DNA of 64,000 nucleotides from Candidatus Uhrbacteria bacterium RIFCSPLOWO2_01_FULL_47_17 (GTDB lineage Bacteria; Patescibacteriota; Patescibacteriia; UBA9934; GWF2-40-263), in assembly GCA_001791305.1 (NCBI GenBank), contig MGEI01000005.1:146698-210697 (forward strand), in the 5' to 3' direction. Below, one piece after another: positions 6,301 through 53,945 of this stretch. The first letter of the stretch is position 1. Every line of letters starts with the position of its first letter. The translations under genes and the position numbers were made by a program. Below the pieces are notes generated by a model. It saw nothing but the letters and a program-made list of their open reading frames with translations, did no database searches and had not been told where the DNA came from.

Positions 6301-6355
6301 TTATAATTTGCGCATTGATTCGTATTCGTAGGGGAGGCTCGCGAGCCTCCCCTAC
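6301..6355. repeat. conserved leader element with palindrome GTAGGGGAGGCTCGCGAGCCTCCCCTAC, preceded by tgttataat
   Basis: same architecture as 2311-2363; ends about 15 nt before the ATG at 6370. Confidence 0.6.
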
Positions 6356-7339: not shown

Positions 7340-8263
7340 ATGATCGTCACTCTCTCCTCAATACTCCAAAAAGCTCGCCGCGGACATTATGCCGTGGGGG
7401 CGTTTAATGTGAACAATCTGGAAACGATTCAGGCAGTTATGGATGCGGCGGAAGCGGAACGATCACCGGTTATTTTGCAAACGTCCGAAGGCGCGATTGC
7501 GTATGCGGGGATGGAAGAGCTTGCGGCACTTGTGCATGTGGCGGCAAAAAAATCCAAACGTCCGGTGGTGTTTCATCTGGATCATGGAAAAAATTTTGAT
7601 TTGGTGATGGAAGCGATTGAAAGCGGATGGTACACGTCCGTGATGTTCGACGGGAGCGCACTTTCGTTTGAAGAAAATGTCGCGATGACAAAAAAGATTG
7701 TAGCGTGTGCGCACAAAAGAAAAATCTCGGTCGAAGCCGAGCTTGGGGCAATTGCAGGAATCGAAGATTTTGTGAGTGTCTCAGAAAAAAATGCACATCT
7801 CACCAACCCGGAGCAAGCTCGCACGTTTGTCGCGAAGACCAAATGCGATGCACTCGCGATTGCAATCGGCACACGTCACGGCGCGTTCAAATATGAACAT
7901 GAATCTCAGTTGGATTTTGGACGACTGAAAAAAATTTCCGAATCTGTTTCTGTTCCTCTCGTTCTGCATGGAGCTTCAGGCGTCCCATCACATATCAAAG
8001 CACTCTGTACAAAATACGGCTGTGAAATCGCCTCGGCAAAGGGCGTTTCTGACGCGCATGTAAAAAAAGCCGTTTCGCTCGGCATCTGCAAAGTAAACAT
8101 CGACACAGATTTGCGCATTGCGTTTGATGCGGGTATTCGAAAGTTCTTGCACGATAAACCAGAGGTCATTGATCCGCGAGAAATTCTCGGACCGGCAAAG
8201 GATTTGATCACAAAAGTGGTGAGGCAGAAAATGAAGATGCTAGGGAGTAGCGGAAAAGGCTAG
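7340..8263 (+). CDS. fba: class II fructose-bisphosphate aldolase
   Basis: GHYAVGAFNVNNLE, VILQTSEGA, FHLDHG, LVLHGASG. ATG at 7340 (MIVTLSS) preferred over the track start 7319, which overlaps the upstream gene. Confidence 0.85.
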   Translation: MIVTLSSILQKARRGHYAVGAFNVNNLETIQAVMDAAEAERSPVILQTSEGAIAYAGMEELAALVHVAAKKSKRPVVFHLDHGKNFDLVMEAIESGWYTSVMFDGSALSFEENVAMTKKIVACAHKRKISVEAELGAIAGIEDFVSVSEKNAHLTNPEQARTFVAKTKCDALAIAIGTRHGAFKYEHESQLDFGRLKKISESVSVPLVLHGASGVPSHIKALCTKYGCEIASAKGVSDAHVKKAVSLGICKVNIDTDLRIAFDAGIRKFLHDKPEVIDPREILGPAKDLITKVVRQKMKMLGSSGKG

Positions 8264-8265
8264 CG

Positions 8266-8396
8266 GGGTTGGCAAAGTTTGCAAGGTTGGCGAAAAAAAC
8301 TTTGGATTATCATCCGGAGTTTTTTGTTTCGTGATATAATTTCATCAATGAATTTTTTTCATGCAAACTTTGCCAACCTTGCAAACCTCGCCAACC
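8266..8396. promoter_or_regulatory. two inverted arrays of 9-bp repeats (GGTTGGCAA AGTTTGCAA GGTTGGCGA ... rc) flanking an extended -10 box (tgatataat, about 8330-8338) upstream of the second PfkB gene
   Basis: array 8266-8292 and inverted array 8362-8396; the same 9-mers recur at 26871-26960. Confidence 0.5.
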
Positions 8397-8402
8397 CAAA
8401 TT

Positions 8403-9335
8403 ATGTCCTACGATTTCCTCACCATCGGCGCGGCGACACGGGATATTTTTCTCGTGTCCGATGCGTTTCGTTCTGTTCCCAATAAAACATTCGAAGGTGG
8501 TCATGCAGAATGCGTTCCGCTCGGATCCAAAATCGAGATTCAAACCTTTGTTGCAACAACGGGTGGGGGTGCCACAAATGCCGCTGCAACATTTCGATCT
8601 CTTGGGTTTCGCACCGCGCTTATTTGTCGCATTGGCGATGACTCGATCGGCCGAGATGTCCTCGAAGATCTCAAGCGTTATCGCATCGAATCAAAATACA
8701 TAAACCGCATCAAAGGCGGACAAACCGCCTACTCAACACTCCTCACTATGCCGGAAGGCGAACGAACCGTGCTTGTGTATCGTGGTGTCTCGTCGAAGTT
8801 CACAGATGCGGATATTCACTGGAGTGCGATTCGAAAATCCAAGTGGGTGTATCTCACCTCACTTGGCGGGAACTTTGACCTCTCGAAAAAAATTGTTGCG
8901 TTTGCGCATAAGCATCACATAAAAATCGCTTGGAATCCCGGGGTTGGAGAATTAAAAAAAGGGGTGAAGGCATTTGCATCCCTCTTGCCGTTCGTTGATG
9001 TGTTTATTGTGAACAAAGAGGAAGAAGCGTATGTGAAAAATGTCAGGGCGAGGATCACGCTCGTTACTGATGGATCAAAAGGAACAAACATGTTCCTGGA
9101 AAAAAAACGCATCAAGATCGGCACATCCAGCTCAAAAGGCATCTCGAAGACGGGAGCGGGCGATGCGTTTGGATCCGGATTCGTGGCCGCGCTCATAAAG
9201 TTTAAAGATCCAATCATGGCGGCGCGTATAGGCACCATCAACGCAGAATCTGTGATTCAACATTTAGGAGCAAAAAAAGGCGTGTTGAATGCATGGCCAA
9301 TGGAAGCGAAACTCAAAAAGATAAAAGTCTCGTAA
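8403..9335 (+). CDS. PfkB-family carbohydrate kinase (second copy)
   Basis: DFLTIGAATRDIF, GAGDAFGSGFVAAL. ATG 8403 (MSYDFL) preferred; the track ORF from 8361 would translate the repeat array. Confidence 0.8.
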   Translation: MSYDFLTIGAATRDIFLVSDAFRSVPNKTFEGGHAECVPLGSKIEIQTFVATTGGGATNAAATFRSLGFRTALICRIGDDSIGRDVLEDLKRYRIESKYINRIKGGQTAYSTLLTMPEGERTVLVYRGVSSKFTDADIHWSAIRKSKWVYLTSLGGNFDLSKKIVAFAHKHHIKIAWNPGVGELKKGVKAFASLLPFVDVFIVNKEEEAYVKNVRARITLVTDGSKGTNMFLEKKRIKIGTSSSKGISKTGAGDAFGSGFVAALIKFKDPIMAARIGTINAESVIQHLGAKKGVLNAWPMEAKLKKIKVS

Positions 9336-15537: not shown

Positions 15538-16282
15538 AACATTTTCGTAAAATCTCTTCTGCAATCTCTTTTTCTTCCGGCGTATTAATCCCAATCGCCT
15601 CTTCCGGCGGAATCGATACGGTTGGAATATCGATTCCCTCCTCGAATGCCATCGCGACGAGATCGGTGAGATAATATTCACCCTGCGCATTCTCGTTTTT
15701 TAATTGGGCGAGACGATCCCAGAGCCAATCGGTTCGAAAACAGAAGAGAGCTGGATCGCGTTCGAGAATTTGTTTTTGTTCTTCGCTTGCATCCTTGAAT
15801 TGCTTATTGCCGATCACTCGACCGCTTTCATCACGCAGGATGCGTCCCCATTTCTCAAATGCTTTGTACCAGCCTTCGGTCGATGGCAACGTCGTAGTGG
15901 CCATCGTGACGTGTGCAGCGCGATCGCTGTGAGTTGATGCGAGACGATTCAGTGTTGACGCAGACAAAAACGGATGATCGCCGTAAAGGACGATGAGCGC
16001 ATCTGCATCTTCGACGAATTCCTGTGTGCATCGAACCGCGTGTCCGGTACCGAGCTGTTCTTCTTGAATGGCGTGCGAGCAAGTTCGACCAATCACTTCA
16101 CCGAGGCGTGGCGAATCTTTTCCAATCACAACAACCGGATTCCCCTCGAGACCCGATGCTTCTATAGACTCGAGCAAGTGCTGCAAAATAGGCTTCCCCG
16201 CAACCGGAGTCAGCGCCTTCGGAATATCCTGTTTCATGCGCGTACCTTTTCCGGCCGCGAGGATGACGATTCGGAATTTCAT
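15521..16282 (-). CDS. sugar-phosphate nucleotidyltransferase (GlmU N-terminal-domain-like)
   Basis: ILAAGKGTRMKQDIPKAL, EEQLGTGHAV, YGDHPFL. Confidence 0.7.
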   Translation of the reverse strand: MKFRIVILAAGKGTRMKQDIPKALTPVAGKPILQHLLESIEASGLEGNPVVVIGKDSPRLGEVIGRTCSHAIQEEQLGTGHAVRCTQEFVEDADALIVLYGDHPFLSASTLNRLASTHSDRAAHVTMATTTLPSTEGWYKAFEKWGRILRDESGRVIGNKQFKDASEEQKQILERDPALFCFRTDWLWDRLAQLKNENAQGEYYLTDLVAMAFEEGIDIPTVSIPPEEAIGINTPEEKEIAEEILRKCYGLAS

Positions 16283-16411
16283 ACTATTTCATCAAAACCC
16301 CAACAACAAAACCAAACAGGAACCCGATCGCGAGAAAGAAGATGATTCGGACGACTTTGCAGAGGTGACAGGGCTTTTTTTCTTCATTCATAGGACTCAA
16401 CAATAACAAAA

Positions 16412-16562: not shown

Positions 16563-16868
16563 AATGTAAACTTGCTGTTCTCACGAACAACAATTGAAGA
16601 TCAACAGAACTTATTCTAAACCTAATTTTTTCTGGTACGTGCGTACTCTGTGAACTCTCTTATGCAAGAGAGGTTGTAGAGCTCGACCTATTAGTACTGC
16701 TCGGCTGAACATCTTACGATGCTTACACCTACAGCCTATCAACCTGCTAGTCTCGCAGGGGTCTCAAATGAAGACTTATCTTTGGATCGGCTTCACGCTT
16801 AGATGCTTTCAGCGTTTATCCGAACCGAACGTAGCTACCCAGCGATGCCCTTGGCAGGACAACTGGTG

Positions 16869-16908
<40 letters not shown>

Positions 16909-16944
16909 TGGATTCCATCAATCTTCGACGCCCATGGTAGATAG

Positions 16945-16996
<52 letters not shown>

Positions 16997-17027
16997 TGGC
17001 GAACAGCCAAACCCTTGGGACCTTCTA

Positions 17028-17063
<36 letters not shown>

Positions 17064-17604
17064 GAACCACGCCGTCGCTGTGGACGCTTGGGCGTGACTA
17101 GCCTGTTATCCCCGGAGTAGCTTTTATCCGATGAGCTTCCGCCGTCCTATTTCGTACGGTCGGATCACTAACTTCTGCTTTCGCAACTGCGCGACTTGTA
17201 AGTCTTGCAGTAAAGCTGGCTTCTGCGTTTGCACGTCCAGCGCGATTTCCATCCGCGCCAAGCCAACCTTTGTAAACGCCTCCGTTACATTTTGGGAGGC
17301 ACCCGCCCCAGGTAAACTACCCACCAGATCCTGTCCCTCCCTCCGGTTTCACGGAAGGTGGTTAGACTTTACACAACGCAAGGGTGGTATCTCACTGGTG
17401 CCCGAAGGCTCCCACCTATTCTGAACATGCGGAACATAAAATCAAGACCAAGTTGTAGTAAAGCTTCACGGGGTCTTTTCGTCTTACCACGGGAAGTGAG
17501 CATCTTCACTCACATTGCAATTTCGCCGAGTACATTGTTGAGAGAGTCTCCAAGTCGTTATGCCATTCGTGCAGGACGGAACTTACCCGTCAAGGAATTT
17601 CGCT

Positions 17605-18330
17605 CTTTGTTGTTACGATCCATTGATCGACGTAGTCATTTCTGCCACGTTCTGCATGTCACCATGCAGGTCGGACTCTATCTTCTTCGAAGGTTTCGAA
17701 GTCTGGCGTATAGTCTCTGAGGATTCCAGAAATTTTGATGGAACTTTTCGATTCATCAATTGGATAATCTTTGCAATTTCTTTCTGACCTTGATGATTCT
17801 TGTGCGTTCCTTCCTTCATCATTTGAAGGAGCTGAGCAAAGAGTTCAAAATCATTTTTCTTTGAAGTTTGCAAAGAGTATTTTTGGAAGAACGGAATAAT
17901 CTTCTCTCGAAGATCTTCTTGCGATCTTACACAATACTTTAGCAATGGTTCTCTGTGATTATCATGACGAGTGTTCTGATAAATCTGACCGCATCCGAAA
18001 TACTCACGAATGAGTTCCAGACTTGATCGACTTTTCATACCTTGTGTCACAACAAACTCAGGAAACACCTGCCATCCAAGGCTTGTGGTTTTGTTTCGAA
18101 TCAAACTGACTGAGAAGCAACCCTCTCCGTCAACAAATCCGCAAATCCACCACGCCATTTCTAGTCTTTCCTGCTGATTGTCTCGTTTTTTTATCATACT
18201 ATGGTTATATTTTACCATAGAGTGAACGAGGTGTTCCAGCATATAGCCAAATTTTTCTTTATCTACGTCTGTGAGGCATCACAGTTCGATAATGAGAGGT
18301 CATTCACCTCACTAAGGCAGCTTTTATTTC
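17605..18330 (-). mobile_element. 23S rRNA intron (likely group I) in domain IV, inserted within the conserved CCUAAGGU^AGCGAAAUUCC sequence, carrying a LAGLIDADG homing-endonuclease ORF
   Basis: 23S similarity breaks after ...caaggaatttcgct (17604) and resumes at accttaggacgattatagtt (18331); about 726 nt in between. Confidence 0.7.
17613..18242 (-). CDS. LAGLIDADG homing endonuclease (intron-encoded)
   Basis: WICGFVDGEGCFSVS motif (LAGLIDADG variant), 209 aa, entirely inside the 23S intron. Confidence 0.75.
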   Translation of the reverse strand: MLEHLVHSMVKYNHSMIKKRDNQQERLEMAWWICGFVDGEGCFSVSLIRNKTTSLGWQVFPEFVVTQGMKSRSSLELIREYFGCGQIYQNTRHDNHREPLLKYCVRSQEDLREKIIPFFQKYSLQTSKKNDFELFAQLLQMMKEGTHKNHQGQKEIAKIIQLMNRKVPSKFLESSETIRQTSKPSKKIESDLHGDMQNVAEMTTSINGS

Positions 18331-19182
18331 ACCTTAGGACGATTATAGTTATCGCCGGCGTTCATCCGCGCTTCAGTCGAAAGCTTTGACCCCGAAGGAT
18401 CTAACCCCCTTCCTTAACGTTCGGACACTGGCCAGGCATCAGCCCCTATACTTCACTTTGCAGTTTTGCAGGGACCTGTGTTTTTGGTAAACAGTCGCTT
18501 GGAGTCTTTCGCTGCGGGTCGCCCCCTCACAGGGGCAACCAGGCCTTATCCCGAAGTTACGGCCGTTGTTTTGCCGAGTTCCTAAACAATGTTTCTCTCG
18601 TACGCCTTAGTGCATTACGCACCCACTCACCTGTGTCGGTTTACGGTACGGGTCTCTATCACATTAGCCTTAGCGGCTTTTCTTGGCTCCGTGTTCTTTC
18701 CCCTTGTTTCCTGTTGCCAGAAAACTTGCGATCATATTCGTGCTCTGGATTAAACCAAGCGTGGTGGATTTGCCTGCCACGCGCCTAAATACGCCCAACG
18801 TCATAGCCATAGGACGCGGGAAATTTCACGAAGCGTCCCCGCTTCAGTGTGATAAAAAGTGCAGGAATATTAACCTGCTATGCATCGACTACGCCTTTCA
18901 GCCTCGCCTTAGCACCCGACTAACCCTGGGACGATTTGCGTTGCCCAGGAACCCTTAAGTTTACGGCGGACGGGGTTCTCACCCGTCTTTTTGCTACTCA
19001 TGCCAACATTCTCCCTTCGCATCGCTCCACCATGGGTCACCCCTTTGGCTTCAGCGCAATACGAATGCTCTCCTACCGCTTAACATTTAAAAATGTTAAA
19101 CCCTCAGCTTCGGCACATCATTTAGCCCCGGTACATTTTCGGCGCAGAAAAACTTGACCAGTGAGCTATTACGCTATCTTTA

Positions 19183-19213
<31 letters not shown>

Positions 19214-19792
19214 TTGTTTAAGTCTTTCCACCACCTTTTACACTTAATGATGATTTTGGGGCCTTAGCTTGAGATCTGGGCTGTTTCCCTTTCGACGTAT
19301 GGAGCTTAGCCCCCATCGTCTGACTGCCGGGAACACATGTTGGTATTCGGAGTTTGATTAGAGTCGCTACCCGAAGGCGCAAACTCGATTCAGTGCTCTA
19401 CCCCCAACACATTATTTACCGACGCTAGCCCAAAAGCTATCTCGGAGAGAACCAGCTATTACCGAGTTCGATTGGAATTTCTCCGCTATCCACAACTCAT
19501 CCCCGTGTTTTGCACGGCACGTGGGTTCGGCCCTCCACGAACTGTTACATTCGCTTCAGCCTGGTCATGGATAGGTCACCCGGTTTCGGGTTATGTGCGC
19601 GCCACCAATATTTCGCGGATTAACGCTCGCTTTCACTATGGCTTCGTCCCGGAGGACTTAACCAAGCGACGCACAACACACTCGTTGGCTCATTCTTCAA
19701 TAGGAACGCCATGACCCACTCTCCGCCTTGCGGCTTCGAGGGGCGCTGACTCCTTGTAAGTATACGATTTCAGATACTATTTCATTCCCCTT

Positions 19793-19826
<34 letters not shown>

Positions 19827-21094
19827 GTACACTATCGATCAGAACATGTATTTAGCTTTGCCAGATAGTCCCGGCAGATTCCTACAGGATTTCACGAGTC
19901 CCGTAGTACTCAAGAACAGTAATCATAATGACGTAATATATTTCGCGTACAGGACTTTCACCTTCTATGGTGTGACGTTCCAGTCACTTCCCCTATATAT
20001 TACATGGATTTCATTATCCGTTTTTTGAAGAAAACGACACTACCGTCTTACAACACCTATCTCTCGCAACGACTTCAATCTTTCGCATCCATTCACACAC
20101 AGTCTTGCGACTCCATGCTTACAAACACTTCACGAGAGAGGTTTGAGCTGTTCCCTTTTCGCTCGCCACTACTAAGGGAATCTATTCGTTTCGCGTTTCC
20201 ATACGACGTGCTGTCGGGTAAACCCGACTGGCCGCATGAAAACGTTAAACGAAATTGTTTTTTCTTTTCCTCTGGCTACTGAGATGTTTCACTTCACCAG
20301 GTGCCCTCCTTGCAACTATGTATTGATTGCAAAGTAATGCGGTATGAACCGCATTGGGTTGCCCCATTCGGATATCTTCGGATCAAAGGTTGTTTGCCAC
20401 CTCCCCGAAGCTTTTCGCAGGCTACTACGTCCTTCGTCGGCATGTTCTGTCAAGCCATCCTTCGTATACTCTTATTAATATGCTCTACAACCACTCTTAT
20501 TTAAGAGTGGTTCACTTCTTTGTGGTTTCTCTAATTCTGTTGATCTTCAATTGTAATGTTCGTGCGACCCTTGAAGGGTTTACCGAAATCTGTTTGATTC
20601 AAGGATCTGTTCTGGCCTTGAGGCCAGAGCTGAGCTACGACGCGAGAGTCGGAACTCAGCTCTAGGCACAAGAGACAAAGTGATGGAGTGGTTGAGTGGT
20701 GGAGTGAAGGTACTTGGCTTTTTGTTGAGAAGACACTATAAAACCGCCTTGTGGGCGGTCTTCAAGCAACAAAATTGTTACGATGAAGATCGTCCCTTAT
20801 ATTTGGTTTGCGTTACATGTGAACATATCCCCTTGTTCTCCGTAAGCTCCTTCTCCTCTCCATCCCATCAGCGGACCCATCTTCATGTGGGTCGATCAGC
20901 CAGATTATTCTTGGGACAAAGAAGAAGAAACGTATTCGATTTAAGTGGTGGAAGTTTAACGGAAGCCGAAAAGACTGTCAAGGGAATTTGTCCCAATTGT
21001 TTCCACAGGCATGTTTAACGATTTTATCTTGACAAAACCCCCATTTTCCGCTATGATTGTCTGATCCAAACGTTGGATCAACCAAGGAGGAGAG

Positions 21095-22501
21095 ATGCGT
21101 TCTTTCATCATAATCGCGATCGTTTTCATGTCCGCCTGTGAAAACAAGGTCGAAGGCCCAAAAGGCGATCAAGGAATCCAAGGTGTCGCTGGAGAGAAGG
21201 GCGACAAGGGTGAGCCTGGAGAAAAAGGCGAGGAAGGATCGAAGGGCGATCAGGGTGCAACCGGTTTGCAAGGCGAAAAAGGTTTGCAAGGCATCGCCGG
21301 TGAAAAAGGCGAAACCGGTTCGATCGGTTTGGCCGGAGTTCAAGGCGCGAAGGGAGATCCAGGATCGATCGGTCTTCCAGGTTCAGACGGAACATCTTGC
21401 GTCGGTCAGTCTGTAACCGAGGGCGTGCTCGTCACATGTGGCAAGGAAACATTCCTCGTGAAGCACGGCGATGTTGGACCGGCGGGAGCGAAGGGTGACA
21501 AAGGTGATGCTGGTTCGCAAGGCTTGAAAGGCGACCAAGGATTGCAAGGGATCCAAGGTGTCGCTGGAAAAGATGGCGTGCCTGGTCTCGATGGATTGCC
21601 TGGAGCAAAGGGCGATGTTGGACCGGCGGGAGCGAAGGGTGACAAAGGTGATGCTGGTTCGCAAGGCTTGAAAGGCGACCAAGGATTGCAAGGGATTCAA
21701 GGTGTCACCGGAAAAAATGGCACACCCGGTCTTGATGGATTGCCTGGAGCAAAGGGCGATGTTGGTTCTCAAGGGCTACAAGGAATTCAGGGAGACAAAG
21801 GAGATGCAGGATCCAAAGGTTCACCCGGATGGGATGGGATACCAGGATTAAAAGGAGACAAAGGGAATCAGGGTGAACAGGGTTTACAAGGAATCCAAGG
21901 ACCACAAGGTGTTCAAGGAAAACCAGGAGAACTTGGAAAAAACCTTGTGGCACAGTGCCCTGAAGGATCTAAAGCAATGGTGTTTAAAGGACACCTTAAG
22001 TACTGTGCTCATAAGTTTGTCTTTGAAAAAGGACTGACTTGGGAACAATGTCTGAACACGTGTCTGACGAACGGCTTATTGATTCCCCCACTTCACGAAT
22101 TTGCAATTATTTGCCTTGGAGATCCGACATTCTTCGATCAGGAAAAAGTTAATGGATGCCCGGACTTCCCCAACTGCTCAACCATTACTGGATGCCCGTC
22201 AGACTACAGTTGCTCAGACAAGCTCTGGTTCCACGTTGCCGAAAATCAGGCTGGTGGAGATACGACTCTTCGTCCAACACTAGCCTTCGAGCCATACTCC
22301 CCAGAAATGGGTAAGTATTTTTGCGAGGCCGTTCTGGAACAGAGTAAGGGAGTTGTGTATGCACAACCTAAATCTGGTCAAAAACGCATCTTCCTTAATT
22401 GGTACAGCTACCTTCGAACAGTGACGGTGCAAGACGACTTTGTTCCCACCGTGGACGCAACATTGCTTCCACGCGGCTGTCTTTGTGGAAAACAAATATG
22501 A
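21095..22501 (+). CDS. collagen-like triple-helix-repeat lipoprotein with Cys-rich C-terminal domain
   Basis: lipoprotein-type signal (IIIAIVFMSAC); about 260 aa of uninterrupted G-X-Y; internal 144-bp (48-aa) direct repeat x2 (21470-21613 / 21614-21757); about 190-aa Cys-rich C-terminus. Confidence 0.75.
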   Translation: MRSFIIIAIVFMSACENKVEGPKGDQGIQGVAGEKGDKGEPGEKGEEGSKGDQGATGLQGEKGLQGIAGEKGETGSIGLAGVQGAKGDPGSIGLPGSDGTSCVGQSVTEGVLVTCGKETFLVKHGDVGPAGAKGDKGDAGSQGLKGDQGLQGIQGVAGKDGVPGLDGLPGAKGDVGPAGAKGDKGDAGSQGLKGDQGLQGIQGVTGKNGTPGLDGLPGAKGDVGSQGLQGIQGDKGDAGSKGSPGWDGIPGLKGDKGNQGEQGLQGIQGPQGVQGKPGELGKNLVAQCPEGSKAMVFKGHLKYCAHKFVFEKGLTWEQCLNTCLTNGLLIPPLHEFAIICLGDPTFFDQEKVNGCPDFPNCSTITGCPSDYSCSDKLWFHVAENQAGGDTTLRPTLAFEPYSPEMGKYFCEAVLEQSKGVVYAQPKSGQKRIFLNWYSYLRTVTVQDDFVPTVDATLLPRGCLCGKQI

Positions 22502-23789: not shown

Positions 23790-24524
23790 TTAAAACTCGA
23801 TCACAGACAAACATCCGTGTATGGGATCGGGGGTTTTTTCTGTTTTAAATTTCAGAATGCCTTTTTGAATCCTGAGCGTGGCCGTGCCTGATTGAAAATT
23901 GAGCGTTGCATCGGCGAGGTTTAATGCGTCTTTTGTATATTTTAATCCGTTGCCGCGATGTTCATTTTCTCTGCTTGTGAGAATTTCCGTGAAAGCGACG
24001 TGCAACGCTTCTTGATCGGACACCAAATTCGGTCGAACGCGCTGAAGCGTTTTTAATACGCCTTGCCCTCGATCTGCGAGGATGATGATGCGTTTACCCA
24101 AATCATAAGCAAAAAATATTCCCGGAACATCCGGCCAGTTTCCGATGTTGTGATCATAGGAGTTGCTTCCGATTTCTCCTGCGGCCGAAGAAATAAGAGA
24201 CGCTGTTTTTATAAACAATGGATTTGCATCCATTTCATGAACCATACGTTCAAAACGCGTCTTAAAGACGTCGCTAGTTTGACAATAAAAATCAGATTCC
24301 GGAACAAACGGCGTTTCTGCATGAACCCATTCTTGAGCCAGTCGTAAAATTCCTTTTGTTTTTTTGTTGAGATCCGCCAATGAATAATAACGATGCCCTC
24401 CCGGCGTCACATAGGAAGCTGAAAATGTGCCATCATTATGCCAACGACGCAAAGTCATCTGTGAAACACCCAAATATCTGGCGGCTTCACTGATTGTGAG
24501 ATAGTTTTTTGAAAAGCTAATCAT
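23790..24524 (-). CDS. HTH (MerR/excisionase-type) DNA-binding domain fused to a GHKL/HATPase_c-like ATPase (anti-sigma-factor-kinase-like)
   Basis: N-terminus LTISEAARYLGVSQMTLRRWHNDG (HTH_17-like); C-terminal half with DRGQGV (G1-like) and HRGNGLKY (G2-like) boxes. Confidence 0.55.
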   Translation of the reverse strand: MISFSKNYLTISEAARYLGVSQMTLRRWHNDGTFSASYVTPGGHRYYSLADLNKKTKGILRLAQEWVHAETPFVPESDFYCQTSDVFKTRFERMVHEMDANPLFIKTASLISSAAGEIGSNSYDHNIGNWPDVPGIFFAYDLGKRIIILADRGQGVLKTLQRVRPNLVSDQEALHVAFTEILTSRENEHRGNGLKYTKDALNLADATLNFQSGTATLRIQKGILKFKTEKTPDPIHGCLSVIEF

Positions 24525-26190: not shown

Positions 26191-26862
26191 TCACTCAATT
26201 TCAATCTCCCCAATCGACCCAATCCGTTTCCACGCCACATCGTCTCTCTCATGCGCATAATCATGCTTCGCTCCTGGTCTTACGATGCGGTAGAGCTGGA
26301 TCGGTAATCCGGCGTCCACTATTGGGTTCAGTTCATTCGGGCTGTCGTCGACGAATGCGATCGGACAGACCTCCCCCTGCCCCATTACCTGACCACCCCC
26401 TAGCCCCCTCCTTATAAAGGAGGGGGTTTCCGAGAGCATTTCTCGCAACACCGTCACTTTCAAATTGTTCGGCCCCGCGATTCGGATCGTGTCGAAGTAA
26501 TCATTCAAACCTGTCGAGGCGATCTTTGATCGTTGATACTCCGCGTTTCCGTAGGTCAGAATCGAAAACGTATGCGGCGGTCTGTGTTTCTCAAAAAACG
26601 GCACGACGTCATCATAAACGAGACTCGAGCCGATACTTTGCGCGTGAACGAGAAAATTTTGGACAAGCGTATCAACTTCCGACTCGGAAATTCCACACAT
26701 GAGTGCGTGCGCGCGATGTGTCCAACCGATTGCGTTTAAAATTCCCATTTGCTTGATGGCGACTTCACGATCAACTCCAAGACCCACAAGAATTTCCAGC
26801 CATTCAGACCAAATTTTTTCTGTGTTGAAAAGCGTGGAGTCGAAGTCACAGACGAGGTGCAT
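26191..26862 (-). CDS. HAD-superfamily hydrolase (phosphatase)
   Basis: motif I LVCDFDSTLF starts at residue 3 when ATG 26862 is used (the track start at 26922 would translate the promoter repeat array); FVDDSPNEL motif III. Confidence 0.75.
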   Translation of the reverse strand: MHLVCDFDSTLFNTEKIWSEWLEILVGLGVDREVAIKQMGILNAIGWTHRAHALMCGISESEVDTLVQNFLVHAQSIGSSLVYDDVVPFFEKHRPPHTFSILTYGNAEYQRSKIASTGLNDYFDTIRIAGPNNLKVTVLREMLSETPSFIRRGLGGGQVMGQGEVCPIAFVDDSPNELNPIVDAGLPIQLYRIVRPGAKHDYAHERDDVAWKRIGSIGEIEIE

Positions 26863-26870
26863 AGGGAAAG

Positions 26871-26960
26871 GTTGGCAAGGTTTGCGGGGTTGGCGATGTT
26901 GGCAAAAATTATGAATCGGCACAATGCAAACCTTGCAAACTTTGCCAACCTTGCAAACCC
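26871..26960. promoter_or_regulatory. inverted arrays of 9-bp repeats (GGTTGGCAA GGTTTGCGG GGTTGGCGA TGTTGGCAA ... rc) flanking the -10 box (cataat, minus strand) of the HAD-hydrolase promoter
   Basis: same 9-mer family and same flank-the-minus-10 geometry as 8266-8396. Confidence 0.5.
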
Positions 26961-26963
26961 TGT

Positions 26964-27617
26964 TTATTTATAAACATCCTCCAGGCTCTGTCCCGGGGCG
27001 TAATCAAACGGGGTCTTTGCTATTTCCAAAATTGTTTCTTTGAGAACGGGATATTGTGCTCCCATATAGTGATCATCTGTCGCGGTCTCCATAAATCGGG
27101 CGCGCAATTGATCGGCTAATTTTCGTCCATGCTCGATCGGAACCAACTTATCGTCCGCTGAGTGAATCACAACAAACTCTCTGGCTTTCCACATAAGAAC
27201 GTCTGCGTCGAGGTCATCGACGAATAAGCGACGGAGTTCTGGGCGAGAAACTTTCCATGGTGCGGCGACAAGGATGACGGCGCGTGGAGTCTCGGTCATT
27301 TCAACTGCCTCAAGATACTGTAAAATAGCAAGGGCACCCAAAGAATGCCCAAGCAAAATATCCTCGTTCTTTAAATACCCAATTTCTTTTTTCATGACCT
27401 CCATGAGCTTTGGCATATCGATGCCTTCTCGAATTTCAGGATCGATTGGGACGCTTGGATCCAAAACAGGAGCCTTCAAAGGAAGTTCTGGGGCAATCAC
27501 CTCAAAGCCAGCTGCGTGAAGTTCATCACGAAGCCATGGGTGAAAGTTCATGGATGGACTTGCATTAAAGCCGTGAACAAGGATGATGCGCATACTTTTC
27601 GAGGTGGAGCATACCAA
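26964..27617 (-). CDS. alpha/beta hydrolase, RBBP9/YdeN-like serine hydrolase family
   Basis: MRIILVHGFNASP, nucleophile elbow LLGHSLGA, about 215 aa. Confidence 0.7.
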   Translation of the reverse strand: MVCSTSKSMRIILVHGFNASPSMNFHPWLRDELHAAGFEVIAPELPLKAPVLDPSVPIDPEIREGIDMPKLMEVMKKEIGYLKNEDILLGHSLGALAILQYLEAVEMTETPRAVILVAAPWKVSRPELRRLFVDDLDADVLMWKAREFVVIHSADDKLVPIEHGRKLADQLRARFMETATDDHYMGAQYPVLKETILEIAKTPFDYAPGQSLEDVYK

Positions 27618-29629: not shown

Positions 29630-29710
29630 CGCTTCCGCTGGAAGCGTTTTTTCTTTCCCAATTGAAAAATCTGAGCGTGTCGCGTACACTCGAAGCACAA
29701 ACGAACGAAT

Positions 29711-29837
29711 GATGAAACTTCCAAAATTGGTGCCTCGCGCCGTGCTGGAGGCAAAAAGATCGTGAGAGGTATCCTAAAATACCTCGAACAATTTTTTGCC
29801 GAAGCGCAAGCGAGGCGCCGATTTTGGAAGTTTCATC
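29711..29837 (+). other. structured leader: 28-bp inverted repeat (gatgaaacttccaaaattggtgcctcgc ... gcgaggcgccgattttggaagtttcatc) enclosing a structured loop of about 70 nt, ending 1 nt before tRNA-Leu(TAG)
   Basis: arms are near-perfect reverse complements; the same core IR (AAACTTCCAAAATTGG/CCGATTTTGGAAGTTT) precedes tRNA-Leu(TAA) at 39697-39822. Confidence 0.45.
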
Positions 29838-34366: not shown

Positions 34367-34377
34367 GTTGGATTAGA

Positions 34378-34403
34378 GGGGAGGGTCGCGACCCTCCCCT
34401 ACA
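34378..34403. repeat. palindromic element GGGGAGGGTCGCGACCCTCCCCTACA (identical core to 2339-2363)
   Basis: read directly. Confidence 0.6.
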
Positions 34404-39676: not shown

Positions 39677-39696
39677 TAATCTACAGCCCGTGCGTG

Positions 39697-39823
39697 CTAA
39701 AACTTTCCAAATTGGATGCAAAATTGTTGTGTTGCGAGCACCGCAAGTGAGCTGTACACGGAAGTACAGCGAACGCGGAGCACAGCGACACAACAATTTG
39801 GCGCCGATTTGGGAAGTTTTAGC
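39697..39823 (+). other. structured leader: inverted repeat ctaaaactttccaaattgg ... ccgatttgggaagttttag enclosing a nested-hairpin loop of about 90 nt, ending at the 5' end of tRNA-Leu(TAA)
   Basis: same IR core and same placement as 29711-29837. Confidence 0.45.
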
Positions 39824-52936: not shown

Positions 52937-53812
52937 TTAGGAGAAAATTTCCGCGTTGAATTTGCTCGATGCTCGCATAGTTAAATCCGCATACACAATC
53001 AAGTACTCGAATGCGAATTCTTTTTCGAGAATCTCGGGCTCGACGAAGAAAAGACATGTTGTGAGTGCGTCTGCGAGAAGCCCAGTCTTTGCAATCACCC
53101 ACACCGCCGCAATGTGACGTGGAGACTCGAGAGAATGCGGATCAAGAATATGGTGGAACTGATTCCACGCGCGGCGATTCCCCGCCGAACCGCAAATGCT
53201 CTCATTTCCAATATTCGCAACACCGATGGCCAATGTTGAGTCACACGGATGTTCAAGCCCAACGCGAATCATCGATCCGCTCGCATCTTTCTGTAGAATA
53301 TCACCGCCCGCGTTGATCGTAAACGATGTGATCCCTTGATTCTCGAGGAGCCCACCCACAATATCAACGAGGTACCCTTTCCCCGCGGCACCAACGTCGA
53401 TCAGAACGGGTTGTTTAATGGCGAGTCGAGGAAATGCGTACTCAAGCGCGTCTTCCCACTTCGGGGGCGTGCGTAATTGTTTCGTCTCGAGAGAATATGT
53501 TGCATCGTAACCTGCGTCCGATAAAAGATTTCCAATGAGTGGTGTCACAGATCCATTCGTGAGGCGATACAGTTTTTCATAAAGATCAAACAAGGGCTTT
53601 GCATCATCGGGCAATGCATATTCGCCCGTGCGCCTCGACATCTCCGCCACGAGCGAGTCATCTCGAAATCGCGAATAGTGTTTATCGTAAACCGAAATGC
53701 GATCCATCACCAATTTAAAAATATCCGATGTTTGTTCATCGGATATTTTATCGTGTATGTGAATGTTCCAGTGTGTGCCGATGGCATCGAATTCCATATG
53801 GGGAAGCACCAA
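52937..53812 (-). CDS. apbE: FAD:protein FMN transferase (ApbE family); no signal peptide evident
   Basis: GAAGKGYLVD, INAGGD, HHILDP motifs. Confidence 0.8.
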   Translation of the reverse strand: MVLPHMEFDAIGTHWNIHIHDKISDEQTSDIFKLVMDRISVYDKHYSRFRDDSLVAEMSRRTGEYALPDDAKPLFDLYEKLYRLTNGSVTPLIGNLLSDAGYDATYSLETKQLRTPPKWEDALEYAFPRLAIKQPVLIDVGAAGKGYLVDIVGGLLENQGITSFTINAGGDILQKDASGSMIRVGLEHPCDSTLAIGVANIGNESICGSAGNRRAWNQFHHILDPHSLESPRHIAAVWVIAKTGLLADALTTCLFFVEPEILEKEFAFEYLIVYADLTMRASSKFNAEIFS

Positions 53813-53945
53813 GCAACAAATTCCAAATCACAAATAAATCTCAATAACCAAAATTTCAAATTCTAAACGTTCCCGTTTGCCATTTTGAATTTAGAATTTA
53901 GTATTTGTTTGTAATTTGTTGCTTGTGATTTGGTGCTTTTTATGA

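What the first reader, a model, noticed from the sequence alone, without database searches (positions are those of the whole stretch)
26871..26960. Second promoter carrying the same inverted 9-bp repeat arrays (HAD hydrolase)
This is independent occurrence number two of the array described at 8266-8396. Four 9-mers lie on one side and four on the other side of the cataat -10 (minus strand). The ORF-track start at 26922 (a non-ATG start; the displayed N-terminus QHRQPRKPCQPFP is just the repeat array translated) runs into the array. A true start at ATG 26862 places HAD motif I at the N-terminus and leaves the array fully intergenic.
Basis: seen in the sequence. Interest (0 to 1): 0.55.

Follow-up and report, generated by a model that had tools for sequence, protein, structure and literature searches.

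The report
Repeat-built palindrome between two operon genes
The 9-bp repeat arrays are real and lie outside the HAD gene, but they are the two arms of a palindromic repeat element that fills the gap between two co-directional genes of an uncultured Patescibacteria bacterium; related genomes carry unrelated palindromes, or nothing, at the same junction, so this is probably not a promoter with operator sites.

Summary
Four RGTTKGCRA units (26870-26905) face four inverted units (26924-26959) across an 18-bp spacer. The same architecture occurs at 8267-8396, and nowhere else in about 81 kb of this genome.

The start-codon claim is confirmed. All 13 homologues begin MHLVCDFD, so HAD starts at ATG 26862 and the array is not coding.

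The promoter/operator reading is only partly supported. The spacer's CATAAT lacks the TGnTATAAT form of this lineage's recognisable promoters. Locus A does have TGATATAAT.

The main new result is comparative. The Ser-hydrolase-to-HAD junction is conserved in six genomes:
- One has only TAA-ATT-ATG between the genes.
- Five have a 90-230 bp insert. It consists of one or two long inverted repeats whose arms are tandem 7-9-nt units.
- These inserts belong to at least three unrelated sequence families.
- All run from the stop codon to within 0-7 nt of the ATG.

The genome has almost no Shine-Dalgarno sequences.

Best reading (confidence about 0.4): a copy of a genome-specific palindromic repeat, similar in behaviour to Correia or ERIC elements. 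When transcribed within the operon it folds into a hairpin of about -39 kcal/mol that places stop and start side by side and covers the initiation region.

Main rival (about 0.3): arrays bound by an oligomeric DNA-binding protein.

The parts
26964..27593 (-). Upstream gene: alpha/beta Ser-hydrolase, 209 aa. Its TAA stop is at 26964-26966, 4 nt before the palindrome.
   Evidence: Pfam Ser_hydrolase 2.5e-10 and Abhydrolase_6. Gene calls on 5 contigs. The hydrolase-to-HAD gene order is conserved in L256, L257, L258, L259 and L260.
26924..26959 (.). HAD-proximal upstream arm. Four 9-bp units, read on the HAD (minus) strand: GGTTTGCAA GGTTGGCAA AGTTTGCAA GGTTTGCAT.
   Evidence: Its unit order matches the left arm of locus A.
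26906..26923 (-). 18-bp spacer, which forms the hairpin loop. It contains the -10-like CATAAT (26908-26913, minus strand), with no TG extension.
   Evidence: Sequence. No sigma-70-type promoter found by the scan. No extended -10 near 26862.
26870..26905 (.). Downstream arm. Four 9-bp units, + strand: GGTTGGCAA GGTTTGCGG GGTTGGCGA TGTTGGCAA. In the HAD mRNA it reads as a G-poor UUGCCAAC-type tract.
   Evidence: Its unit order matches the right arm of locus A.
26863..26869 (-). 7-nt tail TTTCCCT between the arm and the ATG. It has no Shine-Dalgarno sequence. CCCU pairs with AGGG at the hairpin base.
   Evidence: MFE -38.7 kcal/mol, z = -4.4. Comparable pyrimidine-rich tails ending in TATG occur in relatives.
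26191..26862 (-). HAD-like hydrolase, 223 aa. True start is ATG 26862; motif I is DFDST.
   Evidence: Alignment A2. 23 contigs carry this exact product. Pfam HAD_2 E = 4.7e-4, below the curated cutoff; homologues carry HAD_2 or Hydrolase domains.
8267..8293 (.). Locus A left arm: three good units plus a degenerate one (8258-8266, GGCTAGCGG) that contains the aldolase TAG stop.
8300..8340 (+). Locus A spacer content. Terminator-like hairpin CTTTGGAT-TATC-ATCCGGAG plus a T run (8300-8329), followed by the extended -10 TGATATAAT (8332-8340).
   Evidence: Sequence and fold. Extended -10 scan. The same terminator-plus-TGnTATAAT module lies upstream of PfkB2 in relatives that have no arrays. The simple terminator scan did not flag the hairpin.
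8361..8396 (.). Locus A right arm: four units, ending 6 nt before the PfkB2 ATG at 8403.
   Evidence: The PfkB2 start is confirmed by alignment A1.
53804..53938 (-). A different palindrome family in the same genome. It spans the gap from the stop of a 202-aa gene to 6 nt before the ApbE ATG at 53797.
   Evidence: It is homologous to the HAD-junction element of L256 and L258.

Best explanation
The two 9-mer arrays are the arms of one copy of a genome-specific palindromic repeat element: 4+4 tandem units, with a second copy at 8258-8396. It occupies the whole junction between the Ser-hydrolase stop codon and the HAD start codon.

It belongs to a wider class found in this Patescibacteria lineage. 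Members are inverted repeats whose arms are made of 3-4 tandem 7-9-nt units. They come in several unrelated sequence families and sit between a stop codon and the next start codon. They are gained, lost or replaced at orthologous junctions.

Inferred mode of action:
- The hydrolase and HAD genes are co-transcribed.
- In the mRNA the arms pair into a hairpin of about -39 kcal/mol. Its base places UAA two nucleotides from one side and AUG directly against the other, and it buries the Shine-Dalgarno-less initiation region.
- HAD is then translated mainly when a ribosome finishing the hydrolase ORF melts the base of the stem (translational coupling), or after the stem is cleaved, for example by RNase III.

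At locus A the same arms bracket an ancestral terminator-plus-promoter module. There the stem would form only in read-through transcripts and would silence them. Transcripts from TGATATAAT carry only the unstructured right arm.

Shown: the anatomy, copy homology, start codons, family turnover, the empty site, fold energies and the absence of Shine-Dalgarno sequences. Inferred: co-transcription, coupling or processing, and how the element spreads.
For: 1. At the orthologous hydrolase-to-HAD junction, L259 has TAA-ATT-ATG. Five genomes have long inverted repeats of at least three unrelated families. The window has GGTTKGCAA units. L257 has GAAG-rich and CTTC-rich arms. L256 and L258 (two copies) have AAATTCTA units, and L260 has related AAATTCGAA units. 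RNA fold z-scores run from -1.7 to -5.3.
2. A second filled-versus-empty pair exists. L248 has a 92-bp palindrome exactly between a small ORF's stop and the NTP_transferase ATG, where the window has TAG-T-ATG.
3. In 8 of 9 such elements the left arm starts 0-4 nt after a stop codon; in 7 of those 8 the right arm ends 0-7 nt before the ATG (the first L258 copy is internal). In L256, L257, L258 and L260 the stop codon is complementary to the trinucleotide ending in the A of AUG (pairing predicted by folding only in L260).
4. Loci A and B share arm-specific unit order and a 22-nt identical stretch, so they are copies of one element and not independent motif clusters. The palindrome at 53804-53938 is homologous to the HAD-junction element of other genomes. 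Families therefore move between loci.
5. In a motif screen, 33 of 44 gene starts showed no Shine-Dalgarno-type motif upstream, and several genes look leaderless. Internal cistrons are usually 1-7 nt from the preceding stop, so coupling is the expected default.
6. Locus B has no lineage-type promoter and no terminator.
7. Relatives' PfkB2 promoters lack any array.
8. No Rfam family matches apart from generic hairpins.
Against: - Arm-to-arm complementarity (A 89%, B 72-81%) is no higher than two random arrays drawn from the same unit pool would give (82% +/- 6). Nothing therefore shows selection for pairing beyond unit identity.
- At locus B the antisense strand folds better than the sense strand (-45.6 against -36.4 kcal/mol). 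Across 9 elements the sense strand is better in 6, worse in 2 and tied in 1.
- Conserved tandem units in every family are what an oligomeric binding protein would need; a plain hairpin would not need them.
- At locus A the arms flank an ancestral terminator and promoter. A single insertion cannot produce that, and it resembles repression by DNA looping.
- A very similar inverted 9-mer array lies upstream of parA on Pediococcus plasmids, a context where such repeat arrays are expected to be protein-bound.
- Only two copies were seen in about 81 kb. No transposase was found. Flanking TA dinucleotides are uninformative here.
- There are no transcript data.
Confidence: 0.4

Rival explanations
1. 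Operator or iteron arrays. An oligomerising DNA-binding protein (ribbon-helix-helix, ParG/omega/MetJ-like, or a TrmB-family sugar regulator) binds each 9-bp or 18-bp unit on both arms. It represses PfkB2 and HAD by occlusion or by looping across the spacer. This is essentially the first reader's view.
For: - Units are individually well conserved: invariant G, TT and GC positions in all four arms, about 80% pairwise identity, and G/T alternation suggesting an 18-bp period.
- Complementarity is no more than unit identity predicts.
- Locus A arms bracket a bona fide TGATATAAT promoter.
- By my arithmetic, centre-to-centre arm distances are about 54 bp and 103 bp, close to whole numbers of helical turns.
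- Pediococcus plasmids carry AGTTTACAA/TTGTAAACT inverted 9-mer arrays 200 bp upstream of parA.
- TrmB-family regulators lie near the PfkB and HAD clusters in relatives and about 14.6 kb from locus A in this genome.
Against: - The motif is absent from the orthologous PfkB2 promoters.
- At the HAD junction it is replaced by unrelated palindromes, or by nothing.
- Locus B has no recognisable promoter to regulate.
- Only one HTH regulator (MerR/HTH_17 type) and no ribbon-helix-helix protein was found among about 38 window ORFs scanned (not every ORF).
- As I recall, described TrmB sites are short two-half-site palindromes, not arrays.
Confidence: 0.3
2. A selfish or neutral miniature inverted-repeat element (or a product of slippage plus template switching) with no regulatory role. 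It is tolerated at operon junctions only because it folds out of the way.
For: - Presence/absence polymorphism at two orthologous junctions.
- Several families per genome, with families shared between genomes at different loci.
- Copy-level homology between loci A and B.
- The elements are flanked by TA...TA, as IS630/mariner-type elements are, though that is close to trivial here.
Against: - Five of six genomes have the same 3-nt target filled, by different families. That is far more than random insertion predicts.
- Locus A cannot be a simple insertion.
- No transposase was seen.
- The deduced TA-duplication empty sites at the HAD junction would remove the hydrolase stop codon.
- There is no variation among five independent contigs examined at this junction (of 23 read).
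Confidence: 0.17
3. A protein-controlled RNA switch. An oligomeric RNA-binding protein, working like TRAP or HutP, binds the tandem units of one arm in the mRNA and so opens or closes the stem that covers the start codon.
For: It would explain both the tandem units and the inverted geometry next to the ATG. The L248 element has UAG-N4-UAG-N4-UAG in one arm, which matches the HutP-type spacing as I recall it.
Against: No candidate protein was found. It would require a different regulator for each palindrome family at the same junction. It is entirely inferential.
Confidence: 0.08
4. An intrinsic terminator or attenuator for the hydrolase gene, with HAD expressed from a promoter in the loop.
For: A long stem is followed by a short U-containing tail (UUUCCCU). 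CATAAT lies in the loop. Some relatives have U-rich tails.
Against: The terminator scan is negative. Canonical terminators in this genome are short GC-rich stems with runs of 5 or more T. The tail is C-rich. The loop promoter lacks lineage features.
Confidence: 0.05

Closest known systems
Correia elements (Neisseria) and ERIC/IRU elements (Enterobacteria): MITE-type intergenic palindromes co-transcribed with neighbouring genes (comparison from my own knowledge)
   Same: Imperfect palindromes of about 100-150 bp in intergenic or intra-operon positions. They are genome-specific families with several copies and show presence/absence at orthologous sites. They fold into long mRNA hairpins. In those systems the hairpins are cut by RNase III or RNase E and change the expression of the flanking genes. 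Correia elements can also supply promoters.
   Different: Here the arms are tandem arrays of 7-9-nt units and not unique terminal repeats. Only 2 copies were seen in about 81 kb, against hundreds for the known elements. No transposase and no convincing target-site duplication were found. The elements run exactly from stop codon to start codon. One copy brackets a resident terminator and promoter.
Translational coupling through a structure that masks the downstream initiation site (e.g. rpmI-rplT, MS2 coat-replicase; from my own knowledge)
   Same: The stem covers the initiation region of the distal cistron. Its 5' arm starts at the proximal stop codon, so a terminating ribosome would open it.
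   Different: There is no Shine-Dalgarno sequence to unmask. The stem is 30 bp or more and built of repeats. The whole spacer is looped out, which is geometrically closer to the pararetrovirus ribosome shunt. Nothing has been tested.
Repeat-array operators and centromeres of ribbon-helix-helix proteins (omega of pSM19035, ParG/parH, ParR/parC, MetJ metboxes; from my own knowledge), and the Pediococcus plasmid array upstream of parA
   Same: Short units of 7-11 bp repeated head to tail in direct and inverted blocks around a promoter. The Pediococcus array is also 9-bp periodic, with a near-identical TTTRCAA core.
   Different: There is no partition gene or ribbon-helix-helix gene nearby. The motif is not conserved at orthologous promoters. 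Locus B sits at an operon junction without a recognisable promoter.
REP/REPIN elements mobilised by RAYT transposases (from my own knowledge)
   Same: Inverted doublets that form long hairpins in extragenic space, organised as genome-specific families.
   Different: REP units are themselves short palindromes with a 5' GTAG. No RAYT gene was seen. The arms here are direct tandem arrays.

Membership tests
HAD superfamily (the downstream protein) | Motif I DxDxT at the N-terminus of the Rossmannoid core | tested here: met
   MHLVCDFDSTLF: D26, D28 and T30 of the 243-aa ORF are invariant across 14 sequences.
HAD superfamily (the downstream protein) | Significant match to a HAD profile | tested here: inconclusive
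   HAD_2 scores 20.8 bits against a cutoff of 23.8 for the window protein. Several homologues carry precomputed HAD_2 or Hydrolase hits.
Sigma-70 promoter with flanking operator arrays | A recognisable promoter between or under the arrays | tested here: inconclusive
   Locus A has TGATATAAT (8332-8340), matching the lineage consensus. Locus B has only CATAAT, with no TG and no -35, and the scan is negative.
Sigma-70 promoter with flanking operator arrays | Operator motif conserved upstream of orthologous genes | tested here: not met
   There are no RGTTKGCRA arrays in L248, L250, L252, L256, L257 or L258. L259 and L260 were read only at the HAD junction, where none is present. The HAD junction carries unrelated repeats or only 3 nt.
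Sigma-70 promoter with flanking operator arrays | A cognate DNA-binding protein | not testable with these tools
   Candidates are a MerR/HTH_17 protein (23790-24524) and a TrmB-family protein about 14.6 kb from locus A. No binding data can be obtained here.
MITE (Correia/ERIC/RUP type) | Terminal inverted repeats | tested here: met
   Arms of 27-36 bp, 72-90% complementary.
MITE (Correia/ERIC/RUP type) | Target-site duplication | tested here: inconclusive
   All elements are flanked by TA...TA. However, the left TA belongs to the stop codon and the right TA to T-ATG. A T at position -1 precedes about 30 of the 44 gene starts. The deduced empty sites at the HAD junction would lack a stop codon.
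MITE (Correia/ERIC/RUP type) | Multi-copy family, with filled and empty orthologous sites | tested here: met
   There are two homologous copies. Empty sites are L259 and window 16282 against L248. Total copy number in the genome is unknown.
MITE (Correia/ERIC/RUP type) | A related autonomous element or transposase | not tested
   None appears among the Pfam-annotated genes of the window and its flanks. The rest of the genome could not be fetched.
Intrinsic terminator | GC-rich stem followed by a T run | tested here: not met
   The scan is negative at 26750-27100. The tail is TTTCCCT.
Initiation-site-masking hairpin for translational coupling | The stem includes or abuts the start codon, and its 5' arm lies within reach of a ribosome terminating at the upstream stop | tested here: met
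   The MFE structure reads UAA-AC-[AGGG...CCCU]-AUG. The same geometry appears at most of the related elements (7 of 9).
Initiation-site-masking hairpin for translational coupling | Co-transcription, and dependence of distal translation on proximal translation | not testable with these tools
   No transcript or reporter data are available.
Described RNA families (Rfam 15) | A match at the gathering score | tested here: not met
   Only sub-threshold matches to miRNA-precursor-like hairpins were found.

The most novel reading that the evidence does not exclude
In these Shine-Dalgarno-less, leaderless-prone Patescibacteria, stop-to-start palindromes built of tandem units are a dedicated operon device. 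The folded stem lets a terminating ribosome cross from the stop codon to the adjacent AUG, a bacterial counterpart of the pararetrovirus ribosome shunt. Alternatively, it acts as a processing stem whose cleavage releases a leaderless downstream mRNA, in the way the hairpins abutting tRNA-Leu and 5S rRNA suggest. The palindromes spread between junctions like mobile elements.
Probability: 0.12. Interest if true: 0.8.

Novelty: new variant of a known kind. Interest (0 to 1): 0.5.

Why it matters
Almost nothing is known about how Candidate Phyla Radiation (Patescibacteria) bacteria control gene expression. This genome appears to use few or no Shine-Dalgarno sequences and many leaderless genes.

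A class of repeat-built palindromes that repeatedly occupies the few nucleotides between coupled genes would be a concrete, testable handle on several questions:
- how internal cistrons are translated in these organisms;
- how small intergenic elements spread in extremely compact genomes;
- how gene callers mis-start genes, since the arms have no stop codon in any of the three forward frames. One JGI gene call (P0121) extends HAD through the array.

If the arrays are instead protein-binding sites, they would define a first regulon linking sugar-phosphate genes (PfkB2, HAD) in this lineage.

Tried and rejected
- **Sigma-54 promoter (TGGCA-N-TTGCA).** The GG-to-GC spacing is 9 nt, not 12. Rejected from the sequence.
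- **DnaA boxes.** Only 5 of 9 positions match the consensus. Rejected.
- **Arrays as coding sequence.** Rejected for both loci by alignments A1 and A2.
- **Breakpoint of a rearrangement that moved the hydrolase.** The 207-aa hydrolase next to PfkB2 in L251 is not the orthologue (24% identity over 33 aa). Rejected.
- **Genome-wide motif scans.** The metagenome scan returned 109 loci, many of them collagen-like Gly-X-Y coding repeats and the rest mostly single unrelated arrays. None belonged to this genome.
- **Phage contigs with similar 9-mer arrays.** L236 and L242 have them upstream of a prim-pol gene; L238, L240 and L230 upstream of gpW. I treat these as unrelated tandem repeats that the pattern itself selected for.
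- **Literature search.** Searches by exact repeat sequence and by topic found nothing relevant.
- **Shine-Dalgarno sequence brought to the AUG by the hairpin.** GGAGGA lies upstream in locus B, but this is not general across elements. Dropped.
- **Sense-versus-antisense folding asymmetry as a test for RNA-level selection.** Inconclusive: 6 of 9 elements favour the sense strand, and locus B favours the antisense strand.
- **Small ORFs near the loci as ribbon-helix-helix regulators.** No Pfam support.

Full report
**Observation**

On the + strand, 26870-26905 reads GGTTGGCAA GGTTTGCGG GGTTGGCGA TGTTGGCAA. The segment 26924-26959 is the inverted array (reverse complement GGTTTGCAA GGTTGGCAA AGTTTGCAA GGTTTGCAT). 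The 18-bp spacer contains CATAAT on the minus strand. Tandem Repeats Finder reports period 9 for both arms.

The 9-mer GGTTKGCRA occurs 14 times against 3.3 expected, and no shuffle reaches 14. The only true arrays are this locus (B) and 8267-8293 / 8361-8396 (A). About 17 kb of additional flanking sequence from the same genome adds none. The junction is identical in five independent contigs.

**Organism and context**

The 23S rRNA gene carries an insertion with a LAGLIDADG ORF. Homologues of the window's PfkB kinase are named Patescibacteria or Candidatus Uhrbacteria by their sources.

Locus A lies between a class II fructose-bisphosphate aldolase and a PfkB kinase followed by a 2-hydroxyacid dehydrogenase, at the end of a pentose-phosphate gene cluster. 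Locus B lies between an alpha/beta Ser-hydrolase and the HAD-like gene. Both genes are on the minus strand.

**Start codons**

All 13 HAD homologues (45-81% identity to the query) start MHLVCDFD. M21 of the long ORF is invariant, and none aligns through the extension. The 223-aa product is the one called on 23 contigs. One JGI call uses the 243-aa form (P0121).

PfkB2 likewise starts at ATG 8403, not 8361. Both arrays are therefore non-coding.

**Is locus B a promoter?**

Recognisable promoters in this genome and its relatives are extended -10 boxes (TGnTATAAT), usually just after a short GC-rich terminator.

Locus A contains such a module inside its 67-bp spacer: a terminator-like hairpin at 8300-8329, then TGATATAAT at 8332-8340. 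The module closely resembles the PfkB2 upstream region of relatives that have no arrays.

Locus B has none. CATAAT lacks the TG, no -35 lies at 16-18 bp, and both scans are negative. The hydrolase stop is 4 nt from the array, and no terminator intervenes. HAD is therefore most simply the second gene of an operon.

**Comparative result**

The hydrolase-to-HAD gene order is conserved in five other genomes (HAD 48-78% identical).

| Genome | What lies between hydrolase stop and HAD ATG |
|---|---|
| L259 | TAA-ATT-ATG only |
| Window | Inverted repeat, GGTTKGCAA units |
| L257 | Inverted repeat, GAAG-rich and CTTC-rich arms |
| L256 | Inverted repeat, AAATTCTA-type units |
| L258 | Two copies, AAATTCTA-type units |
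| L260 | Inverted repeat, AAATTCGAA units |

The filled junctions run from the stop codon to within a few nucleotides of the ATG. They fold at -22 to -44 kcal/mol (z from -1.7 to -5.3). In L256, L257, L258 and L260 the stop codon is complementary to the trinucleotide that ends in the A of AUG; the fold predicts this pair only in L260.

The same pattern recurs at other genes:
- L248 has a 92-bp palindrome exactly where the window has TAG-T-ATG before the NTP_transferase gene.
- L250 has an AAGTCGTA-unit palindrome in the PfkB1 leader.
- The window has a third element at 53804-53938, before ApbE. It is homologous to the HAD-junction element of L256 and L258.

Among 20 co-directional gaps of 15-260 nt in the window, only loci A, B and this third element have stop-to-start stems. 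Most of the others have ordinary terminators or little structure.

**Copy homology**

The upstream arms of A and B share unit order and 22 identical bases. The downstream arms share their G/T phase. A and B are therefore copies of one 4+4-unit element and not independent clusters of a motif.

**Translation context**

In a motif screen, 33 of 44 gene starts showed no Shine-Dalgarno-type motif upstream. Several genes have an extended -10 box 17-19 nt before the ATG, so they are effectively leaderless. Internal cistrons usually sit 1-7 nt after the preceding stop. A stable stem covering the start region would therefore matter for translation whenever it is transcribed.

**Evidence against a purely structural reading**

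- Arm complementarity (A 89%, B 72-81%) is no higher than random arrays drawn from the same unit pool give.
- Locus B folds better on the antisense strand.
- Every family is built of tandem units.
- Locus A brackets a resident promoter.
- Pediococcus plasmids carry a near-identical inverted 9-mer array upstream of parA.

A protein that binds the units, on DNA or on RNA, therefore remains a serious rival.

**Verdict**

The observation and the start codon are confirmed. 'Promoter with operator arrays' is only partly supported.

The best-supported description is a copy of a lineage-typical, repeat-built palindromic element that fills an operon junction. It probably acts as an mRNA hairpin that ties HAD translation to the upstream gene or to RNA processing (confidence about 0.4). 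The operator-array reading stands at about 0.3.

No Rfam family matches and no paper was found.

Noticed in passing
window 29705-29837 and 39694-39823; L257 6994-7120; L256 3820-3944: Both tRNA-Leu genes are preceded by a rod-like hairpin of about 130 nt (-79 and -77 kcal/mol). Its 3' base abuts nucleotide 1 of the tRNA. Relatives carry the same element, with compensatory inner-stem changes (CTCGC/GCGAG, CTTGC/GCAAG, TTCAC/GTGAA). No Rfam family matches.
   Followed up: partly
window ~2335-2362, 6328-6355, ~34375-34402: A 28-bp palindrome, GTAGGGGAGG(G/C)TCGCGA(C/G)CCTCCCCTAC, occurs three times. Two copies lie in 5' leaders just downstream of TGnTATAnT promoters. The stem pairs a Shine-Dalgarno-like sequence with an anti-Shine-Dalgarno-like sequence.
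   Followed up: no
window 53804-53938: A second palindrome family spans the gap between a 202-aa gene and ApbE (ATG 53797). It is homologous to the element at the HAD junction of L256 and L258, with a shared core AAATTCTAAAT...GTTTAGAATTT.
   Followed up: partly
window gene starts, e.g. 33087, 34172, 51354: The genome has almost no Shine-Dalgarno sequences. Several genes have an extended -10 box 17-19 nt before the ATG, which implies leaderless mRNAs.
   Followed up: partly
L248 16812-16905 versus window 16282-16290: A 92-bp palindrome made of GTAGAAAG-type units sits exactly between a small ORF's stop and the NTP_transferase ATG in a relative. The window has TAG-T-ATG at the same place. One arm reads UAG-N4-UAG-N4-UAG.
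   Followed up: partly
L248 7511-8293; L257 12364-13161; L258 10770-11552 and 14436-15239; L255 2169-2948: TrmB-family sugar regulators lie close to the PfkB/aldolase or hydrolase-HAD clusters in relatives. In this genome the nearest one is about 14.6 kb upstream of locus A.
   Followed up: no
L261 (Pediococcus acidilactici plasmid NZ_CP118437.1) 2490-2545: An inverted array of 9-bp units (AGTTTACAA x2 facing TGTAAACTT x2, TGCAAACCT, TGCAAACTA) lies about 200 bp upstream of a ParA gene. It is 89.5% identical over 38 bp to the arm at 26921-26958.
   Followed up: partly
L236 1-290, L242 8760-9000; L238 8180-8215, L240, L230 3364-3390: Viral contigs carry GGTTGGCAA arrays in both orientations upstream of a prim-pol gene next to the terminase genes. 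Others carry AGTTTGCAA x3-4 arrays between the large terminase and a gpW-like gene.
   Followed up: partly
window 16670-20485: The 23S rRNA gene is about 0.9 kb longer than the model. It contains a LAGLIDADG homing-endonuclease ORF (17613-18242, minus strand). No 16S gene is adjacent.
   Followed up: no
window 21095-22501: A collagen-like (Gly-X-Y) gene contains 144-bp tandem repeats. The repeat copy number differs between contigs of the same species (window versus L001 and L003).
   Followed up: no
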